Shown piece by piece: positions 1 to 15,403 of a stretch of DNA of 40,433 nucleotides (its first letter is position 1; the number at the start of each line of letters is the position of its first letter). This DNA is from Nanobdellota archaeon. GTDB lineage: Archaea > Nanobdellota > Nanobdellia > Woesearchaeales > JAHWHD01. The stretch spans positions 1 through 40,433 of the forward strand of contig JAYENX010000028.1 of the NCBI GenBank assembly GCA_034722435.1, written 5' to 3'. Position numbers and translations under genes: made by a program. The notes below the pieces were generated by a model. The model did no database searches. It saw nothing but the letters and a program-made list of their open reading frames with translations, and was not told where the DNA came from.

Positions 1-136
1 GAAAAAAAAGTTTAAAAAATTAAAGATTTTGATTATATGTTGGAAAGTACATTTTGAAGAATACGTTTTTAGAATATGAAATTAATAATATTTAATTTTT
101 TTTTCTAATTGAACAACACGTTAAAGATTTTTGAGA

Positions 137-157
137 GTTCCACAGGAAACTTAGGGG
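137..157 (+). promoter_or_regulatory. Origin recognition box (ORB), candidate oriC upstream of cdc6/orc1
   Basis: GTTCCACAGGAAACTTAGGGG fits the archaeal ORB pattern (TTCCA-nnn-GAAAC dyad followed by a G-string). It lies about 80 bp upstream of cdc6, next to a very AT-rich tract (about 60-120). Confidence 0.8.
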
Positions 158-186
158 TAGGAGTTATTGAAAGCAAATGTTTATAT

Positions 187-207
187 ACCTTCACTTCTCT
201 TGGAAAT
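187..207 (-). promoter_or_regulatory. Degenerate inverted ORB-like element
   Basis: Minus strand reads ATTTCCAAGAGAAGTGAAGGT. It keeps the TTCCAnnnGAA spacing and a short G-run and is inverted relative to the 137-157 box. Confidence 0.45.
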
Positions 208-238
208 TTGTTAAATTTTAATTTGAGGGGTGGTTTTA

Positions 239-1444: not shown

Positions 1445-1450
1445 ATAAAA

Positions 1451-3043
1451 ATGGATGTGTTATCAAAAAAGAAACAAATAATTGATTTTTTTTTAAAGCA
1501 AAATATTTTGGTGAGTAATGATTTTCTAAATAAATTAGATTTTTCAAAAGATTTAGGCGAGGTTGGAGATATTTTGAAGACTTCTCCCGATATTTTAATT
1601 TTGAATCCTGATATTGATAAATTAGATTTTAAGGAGAAAAAAGATATTAATTGGAAAGAATTTGAAAAGTCAAAAGCATTTTTAGAGAAAGGAAAAAATT
1701 CTTCTTCTTATGATAAATTTTTAGATTATATACATACTGAAAAACCATTAGTTAAGACTGAAGAGGAGGGTGTTAAAGATGAAAGTGTTAAAGTTATTTA
1801 TTCTTATGATAAACCCCCTAAAAAAAGACAGATTCAAGACTTTGTTAAATATTTCGGTTTAAGATGTAAGGCTCTTGAAGGTATTCTTAAGAATAGACGA
1901 GATTTACAGAGTGTAAGTTCTATAAAACGTATTCTTGCTAAAAAAGAAAAAGAAACTATAGCTTTAATAGCCATTATTTCTGAAAAACGTATATCTAAAA
2001 ATAATAATATTATATTGACAGTTGAAGATTCTACAGGAACTATTAAAGTTGTTGTTAATAAAAATAAACCTGAATGGTTTGATATTGCAAAAGATTTAGT
2101 ATTGGATGAAGTTATAGGTGTTGTAGGTGTAAATAATGGTACTGTGGTATTTGCAAATAAACTTTTTTTACCAGATGTTCCTATACATCATGAATTAAAA
2201 AAGTCTCCAGATGAATGTTATGCTATGTTTATTGCAGATTTTCATTTCGGTAGTAATCTTTTTTTACATAAAGAATTTGATAGATTGATTAAATGGATAA
2301 ATGGTGAAGTAGGAAATGCTGAACAAAGAAAAGTAGCTTCTAAATTAAAATATATATTTGTTGCAGGGGATTTAGTGGAAGGGGTGGGTATTTATCCTGG
2401 TCAGGAAAATGATTTGGAGATTGAAGATATTTATTTACAATATGAAACTTTGGCGAAAATTCTTAAAAGGATACCTACACATATAAAAATAATAGTTTGT
2501 CCCGGAAATCACGACGCTATGAGGATTGCTGAACCTCAACCTCCACTTTATAAAGATTTTGCGAAATCTATTTGGGAACTTCCTAATGTAACATTAGTGA
2601 GTAATCCTTCAACAGTTAATATTCATTCTTCAGAAGACTTTTCTGGATTTGATGTCTTATTATATCATGGATTTAGTTTTCCTCATCTTGCAGATAATGT
2701 AGTTAGTATAAGACAATCCGGTGGTATGGAGAGGGCAGATCTTATAATGAAGTTTCTTCTTCAAAGACGACATTTAGCTCCTCCACATACTTCAAATCTT
2801 TCAATTCCTGATACAGAAGAAGATCCGTTAGTGATTTCAAAAATCCCTGATTTTTTTGTAACTGGACATATACATAGAACTACTGTTGCAAATTATAGAA
2901 ATATTACAATGCTTAATTGTTCTTGTTGGGTCTCTCAATCATCATTTCAAGCAAAAATGGGGATGATTCCTGAACCTGCAAGGGCTTTATTGGTGAATTT
3001 ACAAACAAGGCAAGTGAAAGTTTTGAAATTTGAAGGCAAATGA
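1451..3043 (+). CDS. polB: DNA polymerase D small subunit DP1 (proofreading exonuclease, calcineurin-like phosphoesterase with OB fold)
   Basis: Motifs DFHFGS, GDLVEGVGIYPGQ, PGNHD, YHG, GHIH; lies between cdc6 and DP2. Confidence 0.96.
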   Translation: MDVLSKKKQIIDFFLKQNILVSNDFLNKLDFSKDLGEVGDILKTSPDILILNPDIDKLDFKEKKDINWKEFEKSKAFLEKGKNSSSYDKFLDYIHTEKPLVKTEEEGVKDESVKVIYSYDKPPKKRQIQDFVKYFGLRCKALEGILKNRRDLQSVSSIKRILAKKEKETIALIAIISEKRISKNNNIILTVEDSTGTIKVVVNKNKPEWFDIAKDLVLDEVIGVVGVNNGTVVFANKLFLPDVPIHHELKKSPDECYAMFIADFHFGSNLFLHKEFDRLIKWINGEVGNAEQRKVASKLKYIFVAGDLVEGVGIYPGQENDLEIEDIYLQYETLAKILKRIPTHIKIIVCPGNHDAMRIAEPQPPLYKDFAKSIWELPNVTLVSNPSTVNIHSSEDFSGFDVLLYHGFSFPHLADNVVSIRQSGGMERADLIMKFLLQRRHLAPPHTSNLSIPDTEEDPLVISKIPDFFVTGHIHRTTVANYRNITMLNCSCWVSQSSFQAKMGMIPEPARALLVNLQTRQVKVLKFEGK

Positions 3044-6000
3044 TAGCAAGTAAAGACATGGAAAAGTATTTTGAAAGTTTAAATACTGGTATGAAAATTG
3101 CTTTTGATATAGCTACAGAAGCAAGAAAAAAAGGTCATGATCCTGACGATAAAGTGGAAGTAACCCTTGCTAAAAATATGGCGGAAAGAGTTGTAGGACT
3201 TATATCTGTAGTAGCTCCTCAAATTGTGGGGTCTGGTGTTGTAGAGAGAATTATTGAACTTGAAAAAGAACATGGTGTTCTTGATTGGAGAGTTGCTTTA
3301 CAAATTGCTTTAGAAGTTGCACAAGAAAAATTTTGTAAATTTAAAGAAAAAAAAGAGGCAATGGAAGTAGGAATAAGAACGGGCTTTGCATATGGAACTG
3401 TAGGGGTAGTGAGTTCTCCTCTTGAAGGATTTGTTAATCTCGATATAAGGCCGAGAAGAGATGGTAAGGGCGAATATTTTTGTATGAATTTTTCTGGTCC
3501 TATTAGAAATGCGGGCGGTACTGCTGCATCTTGGTCAGTTATTATTGCTGATTATGTTAGGGTACATATGGGTTATGCACCTTATGACCCTGATGAAAAA
3601 GAAGTTAAAAGAATATATACTGAAATTAGCGATTATCATAATAGAGTAACCAATCTTCAATATTTTCCATCAGAAGGAGAAACTGAGTTTTTAGGTTTGA
3701 ATCTTCCTATTGAAATTAGTGGAGATCCTTCTGAAAAGTTTGAAGTTTCAAATTATAAAGATCTTCCAAGAATCTCAACTAATCTTATTAGGAGTGGTTA
3801 TTGTCTTATACATTCAAGTTGTATACCTTTAAAAGCTCGTAAACTTTGGAAATTTTTAAGTAGATGGGGTGAAGATTTTGGTTTAGGTCATTGGAAATTT
3901 CTTGAAGAATTTATTAAGATTCAAAAGAAAGCAAAAGCTGCAGGTAATTCTAAGAAGAAAGATGATTCTGATGAAAGTAAACTTAAAGTTCCTCCAGATT
4001 ATACATTTATTAAAGATTTAGTTGCGGGTAGGCCTGTTTTTGCTCACCCTCTTGAAAAAGGCGGGTTCAGGTTAAGATATGGTAGGTCGCGAACTTCAGG
4101 ATATTCTGCACAATCTCTTCATCCCTCTACAATGTTCGTACTTAATGATTTTATAGCGATTGGAACGCAATTGAAAGTTGAGAGGCCTGGTAAAGGGGCT
4201 GCATTTACACCGTGTGATTTAATAGAAGGTCCGATTGTCAAATTAAAAGATGGTTCTGTTGTTTTTCTTGAAAATGAAGCATTGGCAAAGCAGTATAATA
4301 AACAAATAAAAGAAATTTTGTTTTTAGGCGATGCTTTAATTAATTATGGTGATTTTTTGAATAGAGCACATTCTCTTGTTCCTCCTGGTTATTGTGAAGA
4401 GTGGTGGGAACAGGAATTAGAGAAAGCTGCAGTTGATTTATTTGGCAATTTAGATGTTGAAAAGCTTCACGAATTTACAGGTGTTGATTTAGAAATTTTA
4501 TCTCAATTGTTAGAAAATCCTTATCGGAAAATATTGTCTAAAGATGCAATTATATTATCTAAAAAATTGAATATACCTTTACATCCGAGATATACTTATC
4601 ATTGGAAAGATATTTCTTTGGAACAGTTTAAAATTTTATGTAAATGGATTAAAACTGCAGATATAAAAAAAAATGGTGAGTTTATTGAAAAAATAATTCT
4701 TAAATTTGACGAAATACCTAAAAGAGTTATTGAGTTTTTAGGCATTCCTCATTTGGCTGTTAATAATGAATTTGTTGTTATAAAAAGTGATGTCGCACAG
4801 GGTTTTATGGCTAATTTAAATGATTTTAAGATTACTGATTCTATAATTGATACGTTTAAAGGGGATTCTGTTTTAGACTTGGTCAATGTACTTTCAAATA
4901 TTAAGATTCGTGATAAGTCTGGCATTTATATTGGTGGAAGGATGGGTCGTCCTGAGAAAGCAAAGATTAGAAGAATGACGGGAAATCCTCATGTTTTATT
5001 TCCTGTAGCTGAAGAAGGGGGAAGAATGAAAAGTTTTCAGGCTGCATTGGAGGTTGGGAAAGTACGTTCTGATTTTCCTATAAATAAATGTGAAGGTTGT
5101 GGTATTGAAACCGTCTATAAAATTTGTGATATCTGTGGCGGGAAGACAAAAAAAATGTTTTTTTGTAAAATTTGCGGAGTAATCGAATCGGAAGAATGCG
5201 AACATGGAAAAGCCTTTTCTTATAAAAGGCAAGATATTGATATTAAACGTTATTTTAATCATGCTCTTAAAATTTTAGATACTAAAACTTATCCTGATTT
5301 AATAAAAGGGGTGAAGGGTACGCGTAATAGGGAACATATTCCTGAACAACTTGTTAAAGGAATTCTTCGTGCTAAGCACGATATTTTTGTAAATAAAGAT
5401 GGAACTATAAGATATGATGCTAGTGAAATTCCTGTAACTCATTTTAAACCTAAAGAAGTTAGAACTTCAATAGAAAAACTTAAAGAGTTAGGTTATATTA
5501 AAGATATTAAAGGAAAACCTTTGGAAAACGATTGTCAAATATTGGAGATTAAACCTCAAGATGTAATTTTACCTTGTTGTCCTGATTCGCCCGATGAACC
5601 CGCGGATAATATTTTTTATCGTACAACTAAATATATTGATGAATTATTAGTTAAGTTATATGGTCTTGATCCATTTTATAATTTAAAATCAAAAGATGAT
5701 CTTGTAGGACACCTTATCATTGGTTTGGCTCCGCATACTAGTGCAGGCACGCTTGGAAGAATAATAGGTTTTTCGAAAACTCAAGGATTTTTTTCACATC
5801 CTTTGTTTCATGCTGCAATGAGGAGAGATTGCGATGGTGATGAATCTTGCTTTTTATTGTTGTTAGATACTTTTCTTAATTTTTCAAAATTATATCTTCC
5901 GCAGAGTAGGGGTTCAACAATGGATGCTCCGTTAGTATTGACTTCGATTTTAGCACCTGGTGAAGTTGATGATATGGCTTTTGATGTCGATATTGTTTGG

Positions 6001-6579
6001 AAATATCCTTTAGAATTTTATGAAGCGTGTATGGAGTATAAAATGCCTTGGGATATTGAAATAAAACAAATAAAAAATGTTCTTAACACGCCTCAACAAT
6101 ATGAAGGGATGGGATTTACACATGATACTGCAGATTTTAATGCAGGTGTACTCTGTTCAAGTTATAAAACCTTGCCGTCTATGCAAGATAAATTGGTTGG
6201 TCAGATGGATGTAGCAGTTAAAATCCGGGCAGTGGACGAATCCGATGTTGCTAGGTTAGTGATTGAAAAACATTTTATACGTGATACTAAAGGGAATTTA
6301 AGAAAGTTTTCAATGCAACAATTTAGGTGTGTTGGTTGTAACGCTAAATTTAGAAGACCCCCTTTGATAGGTAAATGTACAACTTGTGGAGGTAAAATAA
6401 TATTTACAATTGCAGAAGGTTCAGTAGTAAAATATCTTGAACCGTCTATAAGTTTAGCAAATAAGTATAATGTAACTACGTATCTTAAACAAACTTTGGA
6501 GTTAACAAAAAGAAGAGTTGAAGGGGTTTTTGGAAAAGAAAAAGAAATTCAATCAGGTTTAGGGCAGTGGTTTGGTTAA
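3040..6579 (+). CDS. polC: DNA polymerase D large subunit DP2 (no intein)
   Basis: AGGTAA, GRSRTSG, GRMGRPEKAK, catalytic RRDCDGDE, Zn fingers (CEGC/CDIC/CKIC and CVGC/CTTC). ATGA overlap with DP1. Confidence 0.98.
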   Translation: MIASKDMEKYFESLNTGMKIAFDIATEARKKGHDPDDKVEVTLAKNMAERVVGLISVVAPQIVGSGVVERIIELEKEHGVLDWRVALQIALEVAQEKFCKFKEKKEAMEVGIRTGFAYGTVGVVSSPLEGFVNLDIRPRRDGKGEYFCMNFSGPIRNAGGTAASWSVIIADYVRVHMGYAPYDPDEKEVKRIYTEISDYHNRVTNLQYFPSEGETEFLGLNLPIEISGDPSEKFEVSNYKDLPRISTNLIRSGYCLIHSSCIPLKARKLWKFLSRWGEDFGLGHWKFLEEFIKIQKKAKAAGNSKKKDDSDESKLKVPPDYTFIKDLVAGRPVFAHPLEKGGFRLRYGRSRTSGYSAQSLHPSTMFVLNDFIAIGTQLKVERPGKGAAFTPCDLIEGPIVKLKDGSVVFLENEALAKQYNKQIKEILFLGDALINYGDFLNRAHSLVPPGYCEEWWEQELEKAAVDLFGNLDVEKLHEFTGVDLEILSQLLENPYRKILSKDAIILSKKLNIPLHPRYTYHWKDISLEQFKILCKWIKTADIKKNGEFIEKIILKFDEIPKRVIEFLGIPHLAVNNEFVVIKSDVAQGFMANLNDFKITDSIIDTFKGDSVLDLVNVLSNIKIRDKSGIYIGGRMGRPEKAKIRRMTGNPHVLFPVAEEGGRMKSFQAALEVGKVRSDFPINKCEGCGIETVYKICDICGGKTKKMFFCKICGVIESEECEHGKAFSYKRQDIDIKRYFNHALKILDTKTYPDLIKGVKGTRNREHIPEQLVKGILRAKHDIFVNKDGTIRYDASEIPVTHFKPKEVRTSIEKLKELGYIKDIKGKPLENDCQILEIKPQDVILPCCPDSPDEPADNIFYRTTKYIDELLVKLYGLDPFYNLKSKDDLVGHLIIGLAPHTSAGTLGRIIGFSKTQGFFSHPLFHAAMRRDCDGDESCFLLLLDTFLNFSKLYLPQSRGSTMDAPLVLTSILAPGEVDDMAFDVDIVWKYPLEFYEACMEYKMPWDIEIKQIKNVLNTPQQYEGMGFTHDTADFNAGVLCSSYKTLPSMQDKLVGQMDVAVKIRAVDESDVARLVIEKHFIRDTKGNLRKFSMQQFRCVGCNAKFRRPPLIGKCTTCGGKIIFTIAEGSVVKYLEPSISLANKYNVTTYLKQTLELTKRRVEGVFGKEKEIQSGLGQWFG

Positions 6580-6875
6580 TCATCGCTTAAATATGGTTGT
6601 GCAATAGGAATTCCTGCTATTTTCATAATATTTTCTTTTGTTATTAAATTATTTTTTAGTGCAAATTCGATACTTTTTTCTCCAACAATGTTTAAAATAT
6701 TTGCACATTTTATAATTTCAAGACATTCATTTTCATCTTTTTCTTCTCCTTGATAAAAATTAGAAGTGAGATCTAGTTGTTTATTATCTTTCTCGAACTT
6801 TTTTCCTATTAAATCAGAGTCACAAATAGCAATTAATGTTTTTCCTTCTTGAGATTTATGTATTTTTATAATCAT
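6576..6875 (-). CDS. DUF424-family protein
   Basis: LIAICDSDLIGKKF, FYQGE, NIVGEKSI and IAGIPIAQ match my recollection of archaeal DUF424. Confidence 0.85.
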   Translation of the reverse strand: MIIKIHKSQEGKTLIAICDSDLIGKKFEKDNKQLDLTSNFYQGEEKDENECLEIIKCANILNIVGEKSIEFALKNNLITKENIMKIAGIPIAQPYLSDD

Positions 6876-6890
6876 TTTATTTCCTCTTGT

Positions 6891-7355
6891 TTAGCCAGTA
6901 TAAGATAATTTTATATTTTCTTGTTTTTGTTCTTTAATCCAACTTTTAGTTATTATATCCATACATATTTTCATATCTTTTTTTATATTTTGCCATTGAT
7001 TCCAAATTTCGTTTATGAATTTAGTAATATCTTTTTCTTTGGCAAAAGTTTCAAGAGTATATCCTTTATGAGCCAAATATAATAATTTTTTATAAAGTTG
7101 TAGAATTGTTTCTTTATCATTTTTTTCAATGTTGTTTGTTTCAACCATTGAATGAATTGTAGGTATTGGCGGATTTATGGCTGGTTCTAATAATCCTGCA
7201 AAATATCCTATTTTGTTGTTTATAGCTCTTGCAATATCTTTAAAATAAAAACCTTGTTTTGTATCTATCTTACCAATTTCGAATTCATCATTAAGATTTT
7301 TAAATTCGGGAAGATTGTATTTTTTTATATATTTAGAGAGTTCTTCTTTTTTCAT
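6891..7355 (-). CDS. Hypothetical helical protein
   Basis: Uninterrupted ORF. ATG at 7355 follows the aIF-2beta stop (7360) and avoids the 32-bp overlap implied by the 7391 start. Confidence 0.7.
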   Translation of the reverse strand: MKKEELSKYIKKYNLPEFKNLNDEFEIGKIDTKQGFYFKDIARAINNKIGYFAGLLEPAINPPIPTIHSMVETNNIEKNDKETILQLYKKLLYLAHKGYTLETFAKEKDITKFINEIWNQWQNIKKDMKICMDIITKSWIKEQKQENIKLSYTG

Positions 7356-7359
7356 ATTT

Positions 7360-7764
7360 CTAAAGTTTTTTAATAGGATATTTAGCTCCACATGCTAAAC
7401 ATCTAAGGAATGTGGCGTTGTTTTCAATAATTATTTTTGTATCAGGTTTGCCGCAGTCAAAACAAAGTACAAATTCTTTAGCATATTTTGATATTTTTTC
7501 ATTGATAGTAGATGCTGCAAATTTACTTCCTAAAATCATTAAGTTTCCTTTTCTAGTTATCGGTGTTGCTAATTCTTTAGAAAGAAACTTAATTATATGT
7601 TCAGGTTTTCGTCTAAAAAGATCTGCAATTTGGAAGAAATTACTAATTACTGTTTTGTTACCTTGTAAATGCCCTCTTACTTTAGGAATTTCAAAACGTT
7701 CTTTTACAAGAACGGATTCAGGTAGCTCTTTTCGAGCTTTTTCTAACATCTTTTTGTAATCCAT
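7360..7764 (-). CDS. eif2b: Translation initiation factor aIF-2 beta subunit
   Basis: ERFEIP, GNKTVISNF, KFLSKELAT, Zn ribbon CFDCGKPDT...CLACGA. Confidence 0.96.
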   Translation of the reverse strand: MDYKKMLEKARKELPESVLVKERFEIPKVRGHLQGNKTVISNFFQIADLFRRKPEHIIKFLSKELATPITRKGNLMILGSKFAASTINEKISKYAKEFVLCFDCGKPDTKIIIENNATFLRCLACGAKYPIKKL

Positions 7765-7880
7765 TGCAAATTTTAAGAAAAGTACTTCATATATAAACTT
7801 AATGTATTCTCCATTAATGTATTTTTATAATTGTTAAATTAGTAAAGTTTTTAAATAGAAAAACCTATTTTTAAGTTGAT

Positions 7881-8708
7881 ATGGTTATAGAGTCGTTGAT
7901 AAATCCTTTTAAGGCACAGAGAAAACCTTGGATTATGATGGTAGTGGGTTTTTTTTATTCAACAATTGCAATTTTTCTTTCATTATGGATTTTTAAAGAT
8001 CATGCAGATTTAGTGATGGTTTTTTTTACAGTTATGGCGTGTATGCCTTTTTTTTATTTTACTGTAAAGAACGAAGAGAAAAATTCTGGAAAATATACCT
8101 CTGAAAAAAAGTTACTCAAGTCACATTCAACTGCGTTATTTTCTTTAATTTATCTTTTTATTGGTACAGTTTTTGCTTTTAGTTTTTGGTATGTTGCATT
8201 TCCTGTAAGTTTAACTAATTCGTTATTTGCTATACAAACGAAAACTATTTTATCAATAAATAATCAGATTGCAGGAAGTTATGTTCAACCTTTTAGTTCT
8301 TTTACGAGAATATTTTTTAATAATGTTAAAGTTTTAACTTTTTGTATTTTGTTTGCATTTATATATGGTTTAGGCGCTGTTTTTATTCTTACATGGAATG
8401 CTTCAGTAATTGCTGTAGCTATAGGCAATTTTATTAAATCTCATTTAAGTACTAATTCTGGTGCGTATTTTCAGGCAGTTTCTTTAGGTTTAACTCGTTA
8501 TATGATACATGGCATTCCTGAAATTGCCGCATATTTTATAGGGGGTTTAGCAGGCGGTGTAGTTTCTGTGGCTGTGATTAAACATTCTATAGGTACTAGA
8601 AGATTTGAGAAAACTTTGTTAGATTCTTCAAGTTTAATTATTTTATCTATATTAATACTTTTAGTTGCTGCTTTAATTGAAGTTTATATAACTCCTGCAT
8701 TATTCTAG
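7881..8708 (+). CDS. Stage II sporulation protein M (SpoIIM)-like integral membrane protein
   Basis: Multiple TM segments; IFFNN, LTWNASVI and HGIPEI motifs typical of the SpoIIM/DUF95 family. Confidence 0.8.
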   Translation: MVIESLINPFKAQRKPWIMMVVGFFYSTIAIFLSLWIFKDHADLVMVFFTVMACMPFFYFTVKNEEKNSGKYTSEKKLLKSHSTALFSLIYLFIGTVFAFSFWYVAFPVSLTNSLFAIQTKTILSINNQIAGSYVQPFSSFTRIFFNNVKVLTFCILFAFIYGLGAVFILTWNASVIAVAIGNFIKSHLSTNSGAYFQAVSLGLTRYMIHGIPEIAAYFIGGLAGGVVSVAVIKHSIGTRRFEKTLLDSSSLIILSILILLVAALIEVYITPALF

Positions 8709-9338
8709 AACTTTGAGTTTTCCTGGTTTTAATTCAAATATTTCTCCATTCATAAGAAGGTTGTTAATGGTTTGTTCATTACTAAGTTTAACTATTTCTT
8801 GGAAATCTGCACCGTCGCCATTATCGAGTTCTTTAATTTTTTCAAGAATTGGGTCTATTTCATTATTTGATTTTTTTTCTGGGGTTTCAGTATCTTTTTT
8901 AATTAATTCAGGGTTTATTTTTTCTTCTTGAATTTTAGTTTCAATTTCGCCTAGTTCTAATTTTCTGACTATTAACCATTTAGTATTATTTATTTTTTTA
9001 ATAATTTCAGGAACTATGTATTTTTCATCATTATACGTACGCACTTTTCCAATTATTTGTATGATATCTCCAACTTTTAAACCTTTAAAATAATTTATTT
9101 CGTTAAAACTTCTTATAGCGATTTCTGCACTCCCATCATCAACATATATAAATTGTTGGATGTCGTCTTCTTTAGAAATGTTGATTATTGTTGAAATTAT
9201 GTTTAATCTTGATATTTTTTTATTTTTTTGAGTTAAAATATAGTTAGGAGTCCAACCTTCTTCAACAAAATATTTTCCTCTAATAATATCTATTATCCAA
9301 GTTTTAAATGCTGTTTGTCTTTGTTGTTGTTCTGCCAT
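8700..9338 (-). CDS. OB-fold nucleic-acid-binding protein with C-terminal winged helix (RPA2/RPA32-like)
   Basis: VDDGSAEI...VGDIIQIIGKVRTY...YIVPEII OB pattern, acidic linker, LLMNGEIFELKPGKLK wH tail. Its ATG directly abuts the MCM stop (TAAATG). Confidence 0.75.
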   Translation of the reverse strand: MAEQQQRQTAFKTWIIDIIRGKYFVEEGWTPNYILTQKNKKISRLNIISTIINISKEDDIQQFIYVDDGSAEIAIRSFNEINYFKGLKVGDIIQIIGKVRTYNDEKYIVPEIIKKINNTKWLIVRKLELGEIETKIQEEKINPELIKKDTETPEKKSNNEIDPILEKIKELDNGDGADFQEIVKLSNEQTINNLLMNGEIFELKPGKLKVLE

Positions 9339-11357
9339 TTAAATCCTGCTCACAAAACCTCGTCTAGGTTCAAATAAATCTCCTGAACGTTTGAGTTTTT
9401 CAATTACTTCATCAACATCTGAATCTGAAATTCCTTTTTCGCCACATTCTTTAGCGATATCTTCTATAGGGATAGTTTTTCCTATTTTATTTTCTAGTTC
9501 GAGAATTATTTCTTTAATAGTAAATATTTTATTTCTTTGAGATGACGTAATTCCTGAAGATATTCTGTCTATGTCGATTTTTCCAGTTTCTGGATCTATA
9601 CCTACTTGAGATAGGCAGTAATTGAGAATATTAATGGATCTTTTTGCGTCTTTTTTAGTGACTTTTTCAGATAAACGAATTTTTGCATTTGCTTCTGCCA
9701 TTCTTACAAGTGCTTCAAGTTGTCTAGGGGTGATAGGTACAGATTTAGCACCTGCCTCGTCGCTGACGGCATTACGCATTTCTACATAAAAATTTTTAAT
9801 TTCTTCAATTGCGCTATCTGTTAGTGCAGGCGAACACCTTTGACGGGCATAAGCAATGAATTTTCTTAATAGTTGAGTTTCAATTTCTGGTTCTTGACCT
9901 TCAGGTTTTTGGTGAAGACCTAGAATATGTTTAGCTAGTTTTTCATCTTTTGTTCGATCAGGAAGATCTTTGATAGGGAATATTAAATCAAATCTGCTGA
10001 TAAGTGCAGGAGGAAGATCTATCTGTTTAGCAATTATATCGTAAGGATCGAACCTGCCAAATTTAGGGTTTGCTGCAGCAAGTACTGTTGTTTCGGCCCT
10101 TAGTGTAGCTTGAATATTGGCTTTAGAAATTGTGATGGTTTGTTGTTCTAATGCTTCGTGCATAGCACTTCTATCTTCAACTGACATTTTATCCATCTCG
10201 TCAATACAACAAAGTCCTTTATTTGCTAAAACAAGGGCTCCTGCTTCAAGAGACCATCCCTTTAAGAATTCATCTTTCACAACTGCAGCAGTAAGACCTG
10301 CACCAGAAGCACCTTTCCCAGAGACGTATCTTGCTTTCGGAGAGACTATAACTGCTCTTTTGAGAATTTGAGATTTACCTGCACCAGGATCACCTATCAA
10401 TAGAACGTGCATGTCTCCTCTAGTTATTACTCCATCCCCTCTTATTTTTCTTACTCCTCCTACTAATTGTAATATTACGGCCTCTTTTACTTTGTTATGG
10501 CCATATATTGAAGGCGCGACTGCGTTTATCATTTTTTCATAAACTTTTTTGTCAGATGCGAGACTAAGAATTTGTGCTTTTTCTTCTTCTGAAATAACTA
10601 TGTCTGAAAAATCTTCATTAACAGCTTCTACATAGTTTGCTTCAATTAGAAGATCGTATCTGACGGATTGGATTCCTGAATGTAATGTGATAGGTATTTC
10701 TTTTACTTTACCAACTATGATTATTTTTGAACCGGGGTTTGTTCTTTTTTCAGTAATTGGTGAAACTAAATCGTCTTTTAGGAATACGTTCATTCTTTTT
10801 GGTTGTTCACCACCTTCAAGGTTTTCTGGAGCTTCTTCAAGAACTATTCCTTGTGCATCAATTAATTCTTTACTGAGCAAAATAAATTTACCCTTTCTAC
10901 CGCAACCACATCTACTTGGTTCTTTGAATTTCTGGTCTAATTGGAGAACGGAAATAACGTTACCGCAGCTCGGACATTCAAATTTTGCAGCCGTGACTTG
11001 AGGTCTTACATCTGATTTTTGTCTTACAATCCCTTCAATAGTTAAAAGTTTTCCAATATGTTTACTCCTTATATTTCTTATAAGGATATGTTGACTATCT
11101 GGAAGATTTTTTATTCTTATTTTTAAACCTTTAACTTCAGAGGGAAGATCAAATTGTTCAATTCCTAGTTCAAAAGCCTTTATTAATTCGTCAGGATTTT
11201 CAAGAAGTTCTTCTGCGAGGTCAGGATCGTGTTTTGAGATGTCTGTAAAATCTATAATGAGAAAGCTTTTACCCTTTCTTACTGTTTCAAGAAGTGTATC
11301 GTGATAGTTAGTTTCAATTACTTCATTAAATTTTTTAATTTGTTCTTCTACATCCAT
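9339..11357 (-). CDS. mcm: MCM replicative helicase
   Basis: Zn finger CPSC...CGC, Walker A GDPGAGKSQ, IDEMDKM, HEALEQQ, arginine finger SRFD, ITPRQLE, C-terminal wH. Confidence 0.98.
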   Translation of the reverse strand: MDVEEQIKKFNEVIETNYHDTLLETVRKGKSFLIIDFTDISKHDPDLAEELLENPDELIKAFELGIEQFDLPSEVKGLKIRIKNLPDSQHILIRNIRSKHIGKLLTIEGIVRQKSDVRPQVTAAKFECPSCGNVISVLQLDQKFKEPSRCGCGRKGKFILLSKELIDAQGIVLEEAPENLEGGEQPKRMNVFLKDDLVSPITEKRTNPGSKIIIVGKVKEIPITLHSGIQSVRYDLLIEANYVEAVNEDFSDIVISEEEKAQILSLASDKKVYEKMINAVAPSIYGHNKVKEAVILQLVGGVRKIRGDGVITRGDMHVLLIGDPGAGKSQILKRAVIVSPKARYVSGKGASGAGLTAAVVKDEFLKGWSLEAGALVLANKGLCCIDEMDKMSVEDRSAMHEALEQQTITISKANIQATLRAETTVLAAANPKFGRFDPYDIIAKQIDLPPALISRFDLIFPIKDLPDRTKDEKLAKHILGLHQKPEGQEPEIETQLLRKFIAYARQRCSPALTDSAIEEIKNFYVEMRNAVSDEAGAKSVPITPRQLEALVRMAEANAKIRLSEKVTKKDAKRSINILNYCLSQVGIDPETGKIDIDRISSGITSSQRNKIFTIKEIILELENKIGKTIPIEDIAKECGEKGISDSDVDEVIEKLKRSGDLFEPRRGFVSRI

Positions 11358-11439
11358 TATTTGAATCCTCTTAGAATTTAAGATAATCTCTATTATATTA
11401 ATATTTTTGTTATTTATAAACTAAGAATCTTGAATATAT

Positions 11440-11465
11440 AAAAATAAAGAAAAAATTTAAAAAAA
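11440..11465 (-). terminator. Oligo-T intrinsic terminator downstream of tbp
   Basis: On the minus strand a T7 run follows the TGA stop directly, then further T-runs. Archaeal intrinsic terminators are oligo-T tracts. Confidence 0.5.
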
Positions 11466-12017
11466 TCACATGACTTTTTTAAGGTTAATAAGAAGTTTTT
11501 CAAGTGCATCATGAACATCAGCTTCTGATTTTGTTCCTGTACATACAATTTTCCCATTACTGAAAAGTAAGAATGTTGCCCTATCGCCACCTTCTTTGCC
11601 GCCTAATTTATAAACTAAGCCAGGAAATTGTTCTGGTTCGTATTCAGTGTTTGGTAGTTTCATAGCTAACGAATTTAAGTTTAAATCCATTCCTATACTA
11701 CCTGATGCTACAATGTTTTGTACCTTAATTTTAGGTTCAATTTTAATTTTAATGTTGATTTTTTCCAGGCTCTTAATTATTTTTTTCATGGATTCTGTTA
11801 CCTGGTCAAGTGTTCTAGCTCCTGTACAAACTACTTTTCCTGAACTAAATATCAAAGCTGATGTCTTAGGATCTTTAATCCTTATAACTAAGCCAGGAAA
11901 TTGTTCTGGATTGTATTCTGTATTAGAAAGCGTAGCTGCCATTTTTTCTAAAGGTATATCGTGCTCTAATGAGGTAGAAACTACGATATTTACAACCTTT
12001 ATGTCTTTTTTTGTCAT
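11466..12017 (-). CDS. tbp: TATA-box binding protein
   Basis: Two internal repeats NIVVS/NIVAS, EYNPEQFPGL/EYEPEQFPGL, LIFSSGKVVCTGA/LLFSNGKIVCTGT. Confidence 0.98.
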   Translation of the reverse strand: MTKKDIKVVNIVVSTSLEHDIPLEKMAATLSNTEYNPEQFPGLVIRIKDPKTSALIFSSGKVVCTGARTLDQVTESMKKIIKSLEKINIKIKIEPKIKVQNIVASGSIGMDLNLNSLAMKLPNTEYEPEQFPGLVYKLGGKEGGDRATFLLFSNGKIVCTGTKSEADVHDALEKLLINLKKVM

Positions 12018-12164
12018 ATTTATCCCCCCGAACTAATTTTACGTTATTAAAGCCTCTCTTTTAAATATAAAAGCTCTTTTAAAGCTTTTAAATGTATAAT
12101 TCCTAATAAGACCTAGACCTTTATAAAGTCTTTTATAAATAATGAGATTTAGCTTAAATATAAG

Positions 12165-12184
12165 CCCCTTGGTTTCCTATGGAG
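12165..12184 (-). promoter_or_regulatory. ORB-like element upstream of tbp
   Basis: Minus strand CTCCATAGGAAACCAAGGGG, a close match to the 137-157 ORB. Confidence 0.7.
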
Positions 12185-12247
12185 ATTTGTAGTTTAAAAC
12201 TTTATATTGCTTGAATTCTTAAGAATTAGCGTTTTTAGAGGTGTTTT

Positions 12248-12269
12248 ACCCCTTCATTTCCTTTGGAAC
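12248..12269 (-). promoter_or_regulatory. ORB-like element upstream of tbp (second copy)
   Basis: Minus strand GTTCCAAAGGAAATGAAGGGGT, near-canonical ORB with G-string, same orientation as 12165-12184. Confidence 0.75.
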
Positions 12270-15200
12270 TATTGGTCACATGAAACCCAATTAATTGGCC
12301 AAACTCCGTGTTCTACACAAGTTTCATCAAAGTAGTTTCCGTTTAAATCAGGAAGCCAATCAATTTCGCATTTGGAATCTATATTTGTGCCATCACAACG
12401 ATTATTAAGTTCATTAATGTCTGGGAGGTTATTCCCGTTTATATCAACCATTTCATTATCGTATAAGTATAGGTTACCTGTTATTCCATTATAATCGTCA
12501 TAGCACCAACCATTACCATTAGATATTTGGTTCCTGTTTATATTGTCGCAATCGTTTGGTCCTGAACAACTCGTTCCGATTGTTTTGTAGGTGGTTGTGA
12601 CTGATTCTGGTTCACATGTATCTGTACAACGATCAGGGAAAAAGTTTGTTACACTGCAACTTGGGAGAATAGTGAATGGTGTAATTCCATGACAGGTGGG
12701 TGATGCTGTACAGCCTTTTAAAGTGTCTGCATTACAGATGTTGTTTTTGTCAATTGCTGTTGCTGCGTTGTTACATTTATCTATGAAATATGTTTTTCCA
12801 TCTAAGTCAAGGTCACATCTGTTTAGGTCTGTATCACTGGTTAGGCCATCACATTGGTTCGTTGTGCAAGAACATCCTGGTAAAAAGCATTGGAAAATTC
12901 CGTTAGTACTATCGGAATATTGACATTCTCCAGTACAGATATCTTCGAAGTATGGAGTTCCTGCAGAACATTGGCCTGAAAGTTGTCCAGGAGTTAAACC
13001 GTTACAAGCGTCACCTGTACCTGGGCAAGTACCACAAACACAGTTAACAGGTTTGGAACATGAACCGAAATAGCAAGTTGCTTGACATTCTATATATCCT
13101 CCGTCATCATAAGAACTTTCTGAATCAAGAGGGCTTGAACAGCGCATGGCGGTGTTACAAATTCCTGTTGCGCTAGGTATATTAAAATTTTTTTCGTATG
13201 TTGTTGCGTGAAAATTAAAACAATTTGTTGTAGGGATATCCGTGCAAAGAGAGGTATCTTGTACAGGACCTTGGCATCTTTCTGTTTCTGAGCCTGTAAG
13301 GTCTGCACATTCGGTTATTCTAATCCAATTATCAGTTATTTCGCCTGAACAAATATTTCCTCTATTTCCGCATTTTTGTGTGTAAGTTCTTTCATAAATA
13401 TCGTTTTCAGAATTAAAATTGTCAGGGATTATTTGCATGATTGTTGGATCTGTAACGTCAATGTCTATAACTACGTTGCCAGAGTCTTGTACAGCTTTTT
13501 GAGCAACCCCTATTTCTACACGTTCAGGTTTACAAGAAAGATAATTTTCTTCGTAACAAATAGTGCCTGTGTTTAAAGTATAGTCGTCAGCGCAACATGT
13601 GTGGTTTGCTTCGAAATCATCGTATGAATTGTAGGGGTAGATTGGGTCTACGAGACTTCTATGTGGAACGCAGACTTTAACGTCAATGTCTAAGTATTGT
13701 TTAATAGTTCCTGCGTGGTCTGAAGATGTAGTTAGTTCAAATTGATGAGGTTGAGGGGGTAATGTAAATTCTGCAGTTTTAATTTCTTTAATGTCTATAG
13801 GTGTTTCTGATTCGGGAATTATTTGAGTTAAATTTGTGTATGTTTTATCTACAGTAAGATCTTTCCATATTGCGTTAAGGATAGTTGTGAATGCAGCATA
13901 AACTTGGCCGTTTAGTTGGAAGTAGTCTTCAATTGATGCAATATTAGGGGGTATGTCGTCGTATACTTTGAAAGCTTCGGCTTTTACAACAGGCAAATCT
14001 GCAATTAGTATGGTTAAGTCTTGCCAATCTTTTAATCCCGATTCATCTCTGACTTGGATAGTTAAATTGTGTGGTCCGACGTCGGATCTTGTTGTGATAA
14101 TGCTTGAGTTAGGGAATTCTTCAGGGTAGTTGGCGTTGTTGTTCCAATGTAAAGGTTGAGGGCTGTTAATTTTAGTAATATATTTTTCAGGTAGTTGAAT
14201 TATATTATTTTCTTGGTCTAATTCGAATTGTGCATAGTCAAAAATCTCGTTAAAATCTTGTTTCCAACCAATATATTTATACGTTAAAAGATCTAGGTCG
14301 TCAGGGTCGTATCCTTTTATTTTAAAATTTAAATTTTCTCCTTCAAGGATAATTATGTTTTCGTTACCAGTAATGGGAAATCTACCTATCCATTCTAGTA
14401 TAGGGTAACGGTTTTCTATCATAAATTGCATTACGTAGGGAGTGTGATTGAGAATTGATTTTGTGTCTTGAATTTGTAAAAGTGTATCATATGTTTGGTT
14501 ATTACAATCAGTACATAGACGTTCAAAAAGGCCTATATTGATAAATCTGTCAAAGCCTTGGATGTCTGTTTCGACTTCTTTAACTTTGAAAAGTATCTCT
14601 CCGTTATCTTTGTTGATTATATCTTGAGCAATTTGAAATATTTTTATAAGTCTAATCGGTATTTTTGTGTTGAAGTTCATCAGTTCTACAATTGGTTGTT
14701 TACCTGCAATTTTTATTTCAAGAGGGTATGCCATGTTAATTATAATATTATCTCTTCCAAAGGTTACAGTTACATTAGGGGTTCCTTCTTTGATATTATT
14801 TGCGATATTTGGAATTGCTGAAAAATTTAGACATTGTTTTGTTTTGTTTGCAATATATATTTGTAATTGTTCTTGAACAGATGATTCATCTAGAGGTAGG
14901 GTTGTGTCGTAAGTTGGACAAGGGAAAACAAATCTTTCACCTGGTTTATTAGTACCGTATTGATCACAAAGTCCGGGGAATGGGCTTTCTCCAAGATATC
15001 CGAAGTAATTAGTTATTGAAAGTGGGCCTAGTAAAGGATATCTCCAGGGTGGAGGGAAAATTGAGTCCACTTCAAGTAGTGGTTTTGTAATGGCGTATGA
15101 AACAAAATTGTTATTGATATTTAGTGTTTTTTTAGGTAATATGTTACCCCCTTGAAATTTGTAGAGATTTCCACCTTGTCTTCCAAGAGTGATCAGAGCT

Positions 15201-15403
15201 TCTTCAGAACTTATATCAAGACATTTTTCAATATATCCTTTAAGTCCCGCTACTTGGATTGTTTCAGTAAGGACTTTTTGACCTTCTTGTTCAATTTTAG
15301 AAACATTGGTGACTTTCATTACGTACCACATAACGCCAAAAATCATTATTATAATCATGCCGAGTATTATGAACATAGTTATTTGAGATTTTTTAGGTTT
15401 CAT
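12269..15403 (-). CDS. Large Cys-rich surface protein with class III (pilin-like) signal peptide
   Basis: N-terminus MKPKKS|QITMFIILGMIIIMIFGVMW (basic stretch, small residue, Q, hydrophobic helix); Ig/cadherin-like middle (GYDPD, IQVRDESG); Cys-dense C-terminal half with DxDxDG-like loops (DLDLDG, DLNGN). Confidence 0.75.
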   Translation of the reverse strand: MKPKKSQITMFIILGMIIIMIFGVMWYVMKVTNVSKIEQEGQKVLTETIQVAGLKGYIEKCLDISSEEALITLGRQGGNLYKFQGGNILPKKTLNINNNFVSYAITKPLLEVDSIFPPPWRYPLLGPLSITNYFGYLGESPFPGLCDQYGTNKPGERFVFPCPTYDTTLPLDESSVQEQLQIYIANKTKQCLNFSAIPNIANNIKEGTPNVTVTFGRDNIIINMAYPLEIKIAGKQPIVELMNFNTKIPIRLIKIFQIAQDIINKDNGEILFKVKEVETDIQGFDRFINIGLFERLCTDCNNQTYDTLLQIQDTKSILNHTPYVMQFMIENRYPILEWIGRFPITGNENIIILEGENLNFKIKGYDPDDLDLLTYKYIGWKQDFNEIFDYAQFELDQENNIIQLPEKYITKINSPQPLHWNNNANYPEEFPNSSIITTRSDVGPHNLTIQVRDESGLKDWQDLTILIADLPVVKAEAFKVYDDIPPNIASIEDYFQLNGQVYAAFTTILNAIWKDLTVDKTYTNLTQIIPESETPIDIKEIKTAEFTLPPQPHQFELTTSSDHAGTIKQYLDIDVKVCVPHRSLVDPIYPYNSYDDFEANHTCCADDYTLNTGTICYEENYLSCKPERVEIGVAQKAVQDSGNVVIDIDVTDPTIMQIIPDNFNSENDIYERTYTQKCGNRGNICSGEITDNWIRITECADLTGSETERCQGPVQDTSLCTDIPTTNCFNFHATTYEKNFNIPSATGICNTAMRCSSPLDSESSYDDGGYIECQATCYFGSCSKPVNCVCGTCPGTGDACNGLTPGQLSGQCSAGTPYFEDICTGECQYSDSTNGIFQCFLPGCSCTTNQCDGLTSDTDLNRCDLDLDGKTYFIDKCNNAATAIDKNNICNADTLKGCTASPTCHGITPFTILPSCSVTNFFPDRCTDTCEPESVTTTYKTIGTSCSGPNDCDNINRNQISNGNGWCYDDYNGITGNLYLYDNEMVDINGNNLPDINELNNRCDGTNIDSKCEIDWLPDLNGNYFDETCVEHGVWPINWVSCDQ

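What the first reader, a model, noticed from the sequence alone, without database searches (positions are those of the whole stretch)
12030..12269. Second ORB cluster 12 kb from cdc6, upstream of TBP-MCM-RPA
Seen: two same-orientation boxes (CTCCATAGGAAACCAAGGGG and GTTCCAAAGGAAATGAAGGGGT, minus strand) that match the cdc6-proximal GTTCCACAGGAAACTTAGGGG. A perfect 14-bp palindrome AATTCTTAAGAATT (12214-12227) lies between them, and their G-strings point to an AT-rich tract with repeated TTTATAAA and TTAAATATAA. ORBs therefore bracket the whole replication gene block, G-strings facing inward. Known: ORBs bind Orc1/Cdc6 and usually sit beside the initiator gene. Inference: a second or split origin, a rearrangement relic, or Orc1-mediated control of tbp/mcm, which would couple replication initiation to basal transcription.
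Basis: partly seen in the sequence, partly recalled or inferred. Interest (0 to 1): 0.72.

Follow-up and report, generated by a model that had tools for sequence, protein, structure and literature searches.

The report
Initiator boxes upstream of tbp-mcm promoter
Two genuine binding boxes for the archaeal replication initiator Orc1/Cdc6 lie in fixed orientation and register upstream of the promoter of the TATA-binding-protein/MCM-helicase genes, a layout kept across the order Woesearchaeales; they most likely let the initiator tune these genes and do not look like a second replication origin.

Summary
The pattern TCCANAGGAAANNNAGGGG occurs exactly three times in this 1.3-Mb Woesearchaeota MAG: once before cdc6 (139-157, +) and twice before tbp (12165-12183 and 12249-12267, both -). 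The 14-bp palindrome is real.

The boxes are not a relic. In 80 public Woesearchaeota tbp loci, 54 carry at least one ORB within 450 bp upstream of tbp. All 64 boxes point their G-string at tbp. Paired boxes lie 83-86 bp apart. The proximal box sits 50-54 or 66 bp before a conserved BRE/TATA.

They do not look like an origin:
- no inverted partner box;
- no unwinding element (75.5% AT is ordinary for this genome);
- no copy of the palindrome found in the middle of this order's origins;
- no switch of strand composition at 12.1 kb.

The "bracket" around the replication genes breaks in three rearranged relatives, yet the box stays with tbp. Where it is missing before tbp (two loci), a box lies before mcm.

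Best reading (about 0.6): an Orc1-read promoter element for tbp(-mcm-rpa). Binding and its effect on transcription are untested.

This scan reached the same conclusion in at least five other Woesearchaeota genomes. I found no paper describing it.

The parts
12164..12185 (-). ORB-a, the tbp-proximal origin recognition box (core TCCATAGGAAACCAAGGGG, 12165-12183). Its G-string points toward tbp. The first T of the TCCA motif is 166 bp upstream of the tbp ATG.
   Evidence: It is the best position weight matrix hit in the genome at 29.7 bits.
12248..12269 (-). ORB-b, the distal box (core TCCAAAGGAAATGAAGGGG, 12249-12267). It has the same orientation as ORB-a and lies 84 bp from it (about 8 helical turns). 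It abuts the stop codon of the 1044-aa ORF.
   Evidence: 29.0 bits. A spacing of 83-86 bp recurs in 14 of 18 box pairs in relatives.
12214..12227 (.). Perfect 14-bp palindrome AATTCTTAAGAATT in the spacer between the two boxes. Its sequence is not conserved in relatives. Only a few loci have another short palindrome in the middle of the spacer.
12120..12139 (-). Tandem TATA-like boxes with a BRE-like element, reading TTTATAAAAGACTTTATAAA on the minus strand. This is the window's version of the conserved module cTATTTAAAAAcAAAAGTATTTATAAA. It starts 50 bp from the first T of the TCCA motif of ORB-a.
   Evidence: The ORB-to-module offset takes discrete values: 66 bp in 17 loci and 50-54 bp in 15 loci.
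12059..12072 (-). A second, ATG-proximal TATA-like element (TTTTATATTTAAAA), about 45-55 nt before the tbp ATG. It is a possible second promoter. The Shine-Dalgarno-like GGGGGGAT lies at 12022-12029.
   Evidence: Read directly from the sequence. This is inference only.
11466..12017 (-). tbp (TATA-binding protein, 183 aa).
   Evidence: Pfam PF00352, E = 1.4e-59.
9339..11357 (-). mcm (replicative helicase, 672 aa). It lies 108 bp downstream of tbp. The gap holds T-runs and its own TATA-like box, so co-transcription with tbp is uncertain in this genome.
   Evidence: tbp-mcm synteny holds in 75 of 75 relatives' loci with enough DNA.
8700..9338 (-). OB-fold (RPA-like) gene directly after mcm.
137..157 (+). 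cdc6-proximal ORB of the canonical origin. Its G-string points toward cdc6. The contig starts inside the origin's unwinding region, so the rest of the origin is missing from this contig.
   Evidence: The canonical geometry is seen in relatives.
180..207 (.). cdc6 TATA box (TTTATATA, 180-187) abutted by an inverted, degenerate mini-ORB (187-207, minus strand: TTCCAAGAGAAGTGAAGGT). This is a likely Orc1 autoregulation site and serves as context.
   Evidence: The element is conserved in 9 of 10 loci, including G034, where cdc6 is detached from the origin.

Best explanation
The two boxes are non-origin binding sites for the genome's single Orc1/Cdc6. They belong to the upstream control region of tbp, the first gene of the conserved tbp-mcm-rpa cluster.

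Proposed mechanism: one Orc1 monomer binds each box with fixed polarity, its AAA+/G-string side facing the promoter. The two monomers sit on the same face of the helix, 84 bp apart. The proximal monomer lies about 50 bp upstream of a BRE/TATA module. From there Orc1 modulates assembly of the transcription pre-initiation complex. This would couple the supply of TBP, and by read-through or in other lineages directly MCM and RPA, to initiator level or nucleotide state. The logic resembles DnaA boxes in bacterial promoters.

Shown here: the boxes are canonical ORBs, they are rare in the genome, and their orientation, spacing and register to the promoter are conserved across an order. The locus also lacks the features of an origin.

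Inferred, not shown: that Orc1 binds here, and that binding changes transcription. Whether it would activate or repress is unknown.
For: (1) Sequence. The boxes are exact matches to the ORB consensus and are the only such matches in 1.3 Mb besides the cdc6 origin. The genome has one Orc1/Cdc6 gene.

(2) Conservation. In 80 public Woesearchaeota tbp loci, 54 have at least one ORB of 12 bits or more within 450 bp upstream (53 of the 75 loci with at least 300 bp of upstream DNA). All 64 of 64 boxes are on the tbp strand. The exact pattern occurs 40 times upstream against 0 times in the other 555 kb. The same is seen in one genome each of 18 GTDB families.

(3) Promoter register. The distance from the proximal ORB to the CAAAAGT/ATTTATAAA-type BRE/TATA takes discrete values: 66 bp in 17 loci and 50-54 bp in 15 loci (the window is at 50). 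The distance from that module to the ATG varies from 54 to 240 bp.

(4) The box follows the genes, not the origin. The upstream neighbour gene is not conserved. In the rearranged genomes G033, G034 and G037 the 'bracket' is lost but the ORB stays before tbp. In L108 and L134, which lack a box before tbp, an ORB lies about 80 bp before mcm, merged with a TATA-like box.

(5) Precedent in the same lineage. The cdc6 core promoter carries a conserved inverted mini-ORB abutting its TATA, even where cdc6 has left the origin in G034.

(6) Literature. Non-origin Orc1 binding sites and altered transcriptomes in orc1 mutants are reported for Sulfolobus (PMC3607249). Orc1-2 is a transcription regulator (PMC6061795, PMC9738581).
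Against: There are no binding, expression or 5'-end data. No RNA run holds this DNA.

About 30% of Woesearchaeota tbp loci lack the box, so it is dispensable in those lineages.

The box lies 30-50 bp upstream of the BRE. That is further than typical archaeal activator or repressor sites. The two register classes differ by about 14 bp, which is not a whole number of helical turns.

In this window tbp and mcm are separated by 108 bp with T-runs and a separate TATA. Control of mcm from this site is therefore doubtful here.

In six relatives an origin-core-like palindrome lies on the TCCA side of the tbp ORB, against about 0.6 expected by chance. That hints at some kinship with origins.

In Pyrococcus, Cdc6 ChIP-chip found strong binding at the oriC region only (PMC1904270).
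Confidence: 0.6

Rival explanations
1. Initiator sink or switch, or chromosome-organising site. On this reading the phased ORB array near the origin titrates Orc1 or changes its nucleotide state after the region is duplicated (like datA or DARS for DnaA), or it anchors a loop with the origin. Its position before tbp would be incidental.
For: These are high-affinity-looking full ORBs, 1 to 4 per locus, helically phased at 83-86 bp. They always lie within 7.6-14 kb of the origin in genomes that are contiguous there. They are the best matches to the ORB consensus in the genome.
Against: A sink would not need strict orientation toward tbp (64 of 64 boxes) or a discrete 50-54 or 66 bp register to a BRE/TATA. 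Most loci have only one box (44 of 54). The site's position relative to the origin changes in G033, G034 and G037.
Confidence: 0.15
2. Second, dormant or unconventional origin. A same-orientation ORB array could load MCM on one side only and serve as a backup or unidirectional start site.
For: The boxes are canonical ORBs. The mcm gene is adjacent. In six relatives an origin-core-like palindrome (TTCTATATAGAA, at most 1 mismatch) lies on the TCCA side of the tbp ORB. The skew test cannot exclude rare firing, or firing only away from tbp, which is co-directional with forks from the cdc6 origin.
Against: No inverted partner box exists in any locus. In Sulfolobus oriC1 each of the two inverted ORBs is individually required for firing (PMC12141716). 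There is no DUE: AT content is ordinary, and there is no (TA)n tract or mid-DUE palindrome in the window, unlike 9 of 10 true origins of the order. By the canonical geometry in relatives, the unwinding side is the TCCA side, which here is a 65-bp spacer and then a coding region. The + strand GC3 skew is positive for all 30 genes of the contig: +0.47 left and +0.57 right of the boxes.
Confidence: 0.1
3. The boxes are bound by a different factor, or are an inert remnant of an ancestral origin that once lay between divergent tbp and cdc6 genes.
For: Binding has not been tested. In G034, tbp and cdc6 are divergent neighbours 1.1 kb apart. An earlier scan note (e1-977567) describes dyad boxes before mcm in another genome as a general promoter module.
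Against: The full 19-nt ORB, including the G-string, is conserved across at least 18 families, while the flanking and spacer sequence is not. An inert relic would decay. Dyad-only boxes are not enriched in this window, and none lies between tbp and mcm here. In G034 a gene separates tbp from cdc6, and the true origin lies elsewhere.
Confidence: 0.1

Closest known systems
Canonical Orc1/Cdc6-dependent archaeal origin (Sulfolobus oriC1 ORB3-DUE-ORB2; Pyrococcus oriC next to cdc6-dp1-dp2)
   Same: Same ORB consensus (dyad TCCANNNGGAAA plus G-string). It is presumably bound by the same single Orc1/Cdc6 with fixed polarity. It lies in the replication-gene neighbourhood.
   Different: All boxes have one orientation. 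There is no AT-rich DUE and no mid-DUE palindrome. The site is 12 kb from cdc6. There is no skew switch. It is locked in register to a BRE/TATA instead. In Sulfolobus both inverted ORBs are required for firing (PMC12141716).
Second cluster of (mini-)ORB repeats in dp1 of Pyrococcus (Matsunaga et al. 2007, PMC1904270)
   Same: A second group of initiator boxes a short distance from oriC, within the replication-gene island.
   Different: The Pyrococcus repeats are 13-bp mini-ORBs inside a coding region, within the same ~5-kb Cdc6-bound region as oriC. Here the boxes are full ORBs, intergenic, 7.6-14 kb away, and tied to a promoter in orientation and register.
DnaA boxes in bacterial promoters (dnaA autoregulation and other genes) and the datA/DARS loci (established knowledge; the contrast with DnaA is drawn in PMC1904270)
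   Same: The replication initiator's own recognition sequence is reused outside the origin, next to core promoters of replication-related genes. A cluster lies close to the origin.
   Different: A different, non-homologous DNA-binding mode (winged helix plus AAA+ ISM, versus DnaA domain IV) and the archaeal TBP/TFB promoter machinery. No functional data exist here.
Non-origin roles of archaeal Orc1 paralogs: the Orc1-2 DNA-damage regulon and non-origin ChIP-seq sites of Orc1-1/Orc1-3 in Sulfolobus (PMC6061795, PMC9738581, PMC3607249)
   Same: An Orc1/Cdc6-family protein acting, or proposed to act, at promoters.
   Different: Orc1-2 is a specialised non-initiator paralog with its own motif. Here the genome has a single Orc1/Cdc6, and the sites are canonical origin-type ORBs in front of tbp/mcm.

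Membership tests
Archaeal Orc1/Cdc6-dependent replication origin (ORB-DUE-ORB) | Consensus ORB elements | tested here: met
   Two exact ORBs at 12165-12183 and 12249-12267.
Archaeal Orc1/Cdc6-dependent replication origin (ORB-DUE-ORB) | At least two ORBs in inverted orientation flanking the unwinding region | tested here: not met
   Both boxes are on the minus strand. 64 of 64 boxes in 80 relatives' loci share one orientation. The cdc6 origins of relatives always have an inverted pair.
Archaeal Orc1/Cdc6-dependent replication origin (ORB-DUE-ORB) | Exceptionally AT-rich duplex unwinding element between the ORBs | tested here: not met
   The spacer and the tract toward tbp are about 75% AT, within the ordinary intergenic range. 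True origins of the order have 0.72-0.90 AT with (TA)n runs.
Archaeal Orc1/Cdc6-dependent replication origin (ORB-DUE-ORB) | Lineage-specific mid-DUE palindrome (TTCTATATAGAA-like) seen in Woesearchaeales origins | tested here: not met
   No match with at most 1 mismatch in the window. It is present in 9 of 10 cdc6 origins and in 3 of 80 tbp upstream regions.
Archaeal Orc1/Cdc6-dependent replication origin (ORB-DUE-ORB) | Switch of strand compositional bias at the site | tested here: not met
   GC3 skew of the + strand is positive in all 30 genes: +0.47 left and +0.57 right of the boxes. Caveat: the skew pattern of this genome is unusual overall (see Noticed in passing).
Archaeal Orc1/Cdc6-dependent replication origin (ORB-DUE-ORB) | Replication initiates there (marker frequency, 2D gels, RIP mapping) | not testable with these tools
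   The organism is uncultured. Only one DNA run holds the sequence, and it is available as contigs only.
Initiator boxes used as promoter control elements (DnaA-box-type or Orc1-type regulation) | Initiator recognition sequence outside the origin, next to a core promoter | tested here: met
   The boxes are 12 kb from the cdc6 origin. ORB-a is 50 bp upstream of a BRE/TATA module.
Initiator boxes used as promoter control elements (DnaA-box-type or Orc1-type regulation) | Fixed orientation and register relative to the promoter, conserved across lineages and independent of neighbouring genes | tested here: met
   64 of 64 boxes share the orientation. Offsets are 66 bp or 50-54 bp in 32 of 42 loci. 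The upstream neighbour is not conserved. The box stays with tbp after rearrangements.
Initiator boxes used as promoter control elements (DnaA-box-type or Orc1-type regulation) | The initiator binds the site | not testable with these tools
   Needs EMSA or footprinting with the encoded Orc1/Cdc6.
Initiator boxes used as promoter control elements (DnaA-box-type or Orc1-type regulation) | Binding changes transcription of the downstream gene(s) | not testable with these tools
   No RNA run holds this DNA. Needs in vitro transcription or a reporter assay.
datA/DARS-like initiator titration or reactivation locus | A cluster of initiator boxes whose copy number or occupancy controls initiator availability | not testable with these tools
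   Only the anatomy can be judged: 1-4 phased boxes near the origin. The strict link to the promoter argues against a pure sink.

The most novel reading that the evidence does not exclude
In Woesearchaeales the sole Orc1/Cdc6 doubles as a sequence-specific transcription factor. On this reading it forms a small 'initiator regulon': its own promoter via a TATA-abutting mini-ORB, and the TBP/MCM/RPA genes via phased upstream ORBs. That would be an archaeal counterpart of the DnaA regulon, wiring replication licensing directly to the basal transcription factor and the helicase. A still bolder variant that is not excluded: the same-orientation, 84-bp-phased array is a one-sided MCM loading pad or a datA-like initiator sink.
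Probability: 0.3. Interest if true: 0.8.

Novelty: new variant of a known kind. Interest (0 to 1): 0.6.

Why it matters
How archaea coordinate replication initiation with gene expression is largely unknown. Non-origin roles of initiator-type Orc1 have only been hinted at (PMC3607249).

This is a clear and simple case:
- canonical ORBs;
- a single Orc1;
- a fixed register to a recognisable BRE/TATA;
- a target consisting of the basal transcription factor and the replicative helicase;
- conservation across an entire order of reduced-genome DPANN archaea.

That makes the question directly testable with recombinant proteins, using EMSA, footprinting and in vitro transcription. It needs no culture of the organism.

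There is also a practical warning. Origin-prediction tools that count ORB clusters will call a false second origin in these genomes.

Tried and rejected
- **Skew test in a near-complete relative.** I fetched 400 kb of G027 around both ORB sites. That genome has no GC3 skew at all, so it is uninformative.
- **Contig-end overlap.** The start of C28 shares no k-mer of 20 or more with any contig end. The C58/C28 junction rests on synteny only.
- **Sequencing runs.** One DNA holder was found (a brine metagenome, probably the source). No RNA holder is listed. Laying its contigs showed contiguity across 995-13000 and a fragmented first kilobase, nothing more.
- **Rfam on 11300-12700.** Only a sub-threshold SAM-III match (18.9 bits against a 45-bit gathering score, E = 0.37). 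I treated it as chance.
- **A wider 'Orc1 regulon' in G000.** The other position weight matrix hits are inside a viral scaffold-like CDS on C21, and a weak, wrongly oriented intergenic site on C22. Neither is near a replication gene.
- **Lone ORBs in other orders of the class.** They lie next to small unknown or wHTH-like genes, a MetRS gene or a proteasome subunit gene. None lies next to tbp or mcm.
- **The palindrome as a conserved element.** Its sequence is not conserved in the spacers of relatives.
- **Literature on which ORB end faces the DUE.** I found no explicit statement in the papers read. I used the empirical geometry of about 25 cdc6 origins instead.
- **Bin chimerism.** Symmetrised tetranucleotide PCA, run to decide whether the MAG mixes two populations, was inconclusive.

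No claim in this report rests on the unpublished genomes G001 or G002. G002 also shows an ORB 235 bp upstream of tbp, but it is not counted.

Full report
**What is in the window.** The window is a whole contig (C28, 40,433 bp) of a 60-contig, 1.30-Mb MAG that is 94.5% complete. Record titles of close relatives name it Candidatus Woesearchaeota, class Nanoarchaeia. The gene order is:
- cdc6/orc1 at 230-1444 (+)
- PolD DP1 at 1451-3043 (+) and DP2 at 3040-6579 (+)
- DUF424 and aIF2-beta (-)
- a SpoIIM-like gene (+)
- an OB-fold/RPA-like gene at 8700-9338 (-)
- mcm at 9339-11357 (-)
- tbp at 11466-12017 (-)
- an unrelated 1044-aa ORF at 12269-15403 (-)

The finding lies in the 251-bp gap between that ORF's stop codon and the tbp start codon.

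**Observation.** Both minus-strand boxes, the plus-strand cdc6 box and the 14-bp palindrome are exactly as described. The pattern TCCANAGGAAANNNAGGGG matches three times, against 0.02 expected from shuffles. These are the only exact matches in the genome. A 27-nt position weight matrix separates 7 hits of 15 bits or more from a background that tops out at 11.7 bits. The two tbp boxes are the best hits, at 29.7 and 29.0 bits. The tract that the G-strings point to is 75.5% AT, which is ordinary for this genome's intergenic DNA. A Logan contig of the source run covers 995-13000 without any difference at the boxes.

**The cdc6 origin is cut by the contig end.** In relatives the cdc6 origin always has three parts:
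- a proximal ORB whose G-string points to cdc6;
- a region of 100-780 bp at 72-90% AT, with (TA)n runs and a palindrome TTCTATATAGAA;
- one or more inverted distal ORBs.

So the TCCA ends face the unwinding region and the G-strings point outward. C28 starts 136 bp before its proximal box.

By synteny, the missing half of the origin is at the end of contig C58. The TrmB-family gene that follows the distal ORB in G024, G027, G028, G029 and G034 is the last gene of C58. A 21.8-bit ORB of the right orientation lies 55 bp from that contig's end. The junction is not proven. The contig ends share no k-mers, and C58 belongs to a different skew class (see below).

**Is the tbp cluster conserved?** Yes, strongly. 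In eight genomes that are contiguous across both sites, an ORB lies 110-205 bp before the tbp ATG with its G-string toward tbp, 7.6-14 kb from the cdc6 origin.

In 80 public tbp loci (L066-L145):
- 54 have at least one ORB of 12 bits or more within 450 bp upstream. That is 53 of the 75 loci with at least 300 bp of upstream DNA.
- All 64 boxes are on the tbp strand.
- The exact 12-position pattern occurs 40 times upstream and never in the remaining 555 kb.
- A reversed-sequence control gives 5 hits.

With one genome per GTDB family, 18 families show the feature. In about 65 genomes from other orders of the class, no exact ORB lies next to tbp. There the ORB arrays are at cdc6 origins. The feature is therefore typical of Woesearchaeales and was not found outside that order in the genomes searched.

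**Anatomy.**
- Where two or more boxes occur, their spacing is 83-86 bp in 14 of 18 pairs (84 bp in the window). That is about 8 helical turns. G028 has four boxes at 85, 83 and 85 bp. The spacer sequence, including the window's palindrome, is not conserved.
- A conserved module follows the proximal box: cTATTTAAAAAcAAAAGTATTTATAAA. It reads as a tandem TATA with a consensus-like BRE (CAAAAGT).
- The distance from the box to this module is 66 bp in 17 loci and 50-54 bp in 15 loci (50 bp in the window, module at 12120-12139). The distance from the module to the ATG ranges from 54 to 240 bp. So the box is locked to the promoter, not to the coding region.
- The same BRE/TATA module is present in many loci that lack a box, so it is the tbp promoter in its own right.

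**The box follows the genes.**
- The upstream neighbour gene is not conserved.
- In G033, G034 and G037 the island is rearranged, so the boxes no longer 'bracket' the block, but they remain before tbp.
- tbp-mcm synteny holds in 75 of 75 loci with enough DNA.
- In L108 and L134 there is no box before tbp, but an ORB lies about 80 bp before mcm, fused to a TATA-like box. L137 has an extra ORB 228 bp before mcm.
- In this window the tbp-mcm gap is 108 bp, with T-runs and its own TATA. Direct control of mcm from the tbp boxes is therefore uncertain here.

**Origin tests.**
1. No box in any locus has an inverted partner. In Sulfolobus oriC1 each of the two inverted ORBs is individually required for firing (PMC12141716).
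2. There is no DUE, no (TA)n tract and no mid-DUE palindrome in the window.
3. By the canonical geometry the unwinding side is the TCCA side. Here that is a 65-bp spacer followed by a coding region.
4. C28 has an extremely strong strand bias. The + strand GC3 skew is positive in all 30 ORFs, whatever their orientation. Pooled values are +0.47 for 230-12017 and +0.57 for the genes beyond 12269.

A principal or equally used bidirectional origin at 12.1 kb is therefore excluded. Rare firing, or firing only away from tbp, is not excluded.

**Supporting context.**
- The cdc6 core promoter in this order carries an inverted mini-ORB (TTCCANNNGAARNNNAGGT) abutting the TATA box, at window 187-207. It is conserved in 9 of 10 loci. 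One of them is G034, where cdc6 has moved away from the origin. This points to Orc1 acting at promoters in this lineage.
- The genome has a single Orc1/Cdc6 gene.
- Sulfolobus Orc1 proteins have non-origin ChIP-seq sites and their mutants have altered transcriptomes (PMC3607249). Orc1-2 is a regulator (PMC6061795, PMC9738581).
- In Pyrococcus, Cdc6 ChIP-chip bound with very high specificity only the oriC/dp1 region, apart from weak signals elsewhere (PMC1904270).
- No paper in the searchable library combines DPANN with 'origin recognition box'.

**Verdict.** The boxes are best read as an Orc1-read upstream element of the tbp(-mcm-rpa) promoter (about 0.6). The rivals are:
- an initiator sink or architectural site (about 0.15);
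- a dormant or one-sided origin (about 0.1);
- a different binding factor or an inert relic (about 0.1).

Binding and its transcriptional effect are inferences. Whether Orc1 would activate or repress is unknown.

**Relation to earlier scan notes.** After my own analysis, I looked up this scan's notes. At least five follow-up reports on other Woesearchaeota genomes describe the same layout and reach the same conclusion. These are not independent evidence. This report adds:
- the within-contig skew test;
- the restriction to one order;
- the loci with an ORB before mcm;
- the behaviour in rearranged genomes;
- the cdc6 mini-ORB retained after cdc6 detached from the origin.

**Unexplained.**
- Contigs of this MAG fall into two sharp GC3-skew classes, |0.46-0.68| (about 554 kb) and |0-0.3| (about 745 kb). 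One transition occurs inside contig C15 near 30.2 kb. C58, the presumed left flank of the origin, shows weak positive skew instead of mirror-image strong negative skew. A mixed bin could not be confirmed or excluded.
- An origin-core-like palindrome lies on the TCCA side of the tbp ORB in six relatives, against about 0.6 expected by chance.

Noticed in passing
Whole genome G000: C28 and C58, and C15 near 30.2 kb: Third-codon-position GC skew is bimodal among contigs. It is extreme in about 554 kb (|0.46-0.68|, independent of gene strand), including C28, and weak in about 745 kb (|0-0.3|). A sharp strong-to-weak transition lies inside C15, between divergent genes at about 30.2 kb. C58, which by synteny is the left flank of the cdc6 origin, has weak positive skew instead of the mirror-image strong negative skew expected for bidirectional replication. 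The cause could be a mixed bin, a one-sided replication regime or something else. A symmetrised tetranucleotide PCA was inconclusive.
   Followed up: partly
window 180-207, plus L035-L043: The cdc6 TATA box is directly abutted by an inverted degenerate mini-ORB (consensus TTCCANNNGAARNNNAGGT, read on the strand opposite to cdc6). It is conserved in 9 of 10 Woesearchaeales loci. It is kept in G034, where cdc6 is no longer next to the origin. This is a likely Orc1 autorepression site.
   Followed up: partly
L035-L044 (inter-ORB regions of the cdc6 origins); missing from window 1-136: Origins of this order share (TA)n-like runs followed by a palindrome TT(T)CTATATAGAA(A) in the middle of the unwinding region (9 of 10 loci). 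Its position recalls the ucm motif of Sulfolobus. In G000 this part falls in the assembly gap before C28. The same palindrome (at most 1 mismatch) also lies 19-190 bp to the TCCA side of the tbp ORB in L036, L038, L041, L095 and L131. It also lies upstream of tbp in L140, where no ORB was detected.
   Followed up: partly
window 12183/12267; L035, L037, L039, L066, L073, L086, L098, L111, L115, L121, L129, L133: Tandem ORBs before tbp keep a spacing of 83-86 bp (about 8 helical turns) although the spacer sequence is free to vary. Arrays at the cdc6 origins of other orders are spaced 43-74 bp. The proximal tbp box also has its own 3' extension (GGRGGYATA), whereas distal and origin boxes end in GGGGTGT or GGGGTC.
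   Followed up: partly
G000 contig C21 (about 30-36 kb): This looks like a provirus or virus contig. All 36 ORFs are on one strand, and portal-, scaffold- and major-capsid-like proteins lie in a row. A 23.6-bit ORB-like match lies inside the scaffold-like CDS (33822, -), probably by chance.
   Followed up: no
G000 C10:16017-16541 (-): A second TBP paralog, 67% identical to the one in the window, with no ORB near it. Most relatives searched have a single tbp.
   Followed up: no
L146 (3661, +) and L147 (4873, -), cdc6 genes of another order of the class: An ORB-like sequence (15-19 bits) lies about 165-175 nt inside the cdc6 coding region, in the orientation opposite to the gene, in two genomes of one family.
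   Followed up: no
L153 (G093) 4189 and 4272; L156/L157 (G041); L158 (G094); L159 (G107); L160 (G060); L161 (G043): Other orders of the class also have lone or paired ORBs away from the cdc6 origin. One pair is spaced 83 bp. They lie next to small unknown or wHTH-like genes, not next to tbp or mcm.
   Followed up: partly
window 12050-12099 (-): The presumed tbp leader or proximal promoter holds a direct repeat, TTTAAAAGAG(A)G, twice (in CTTTAAAAGAGC... and ATTTAAAAGAGAGGC). Its role is unknown.
   Followed up: no
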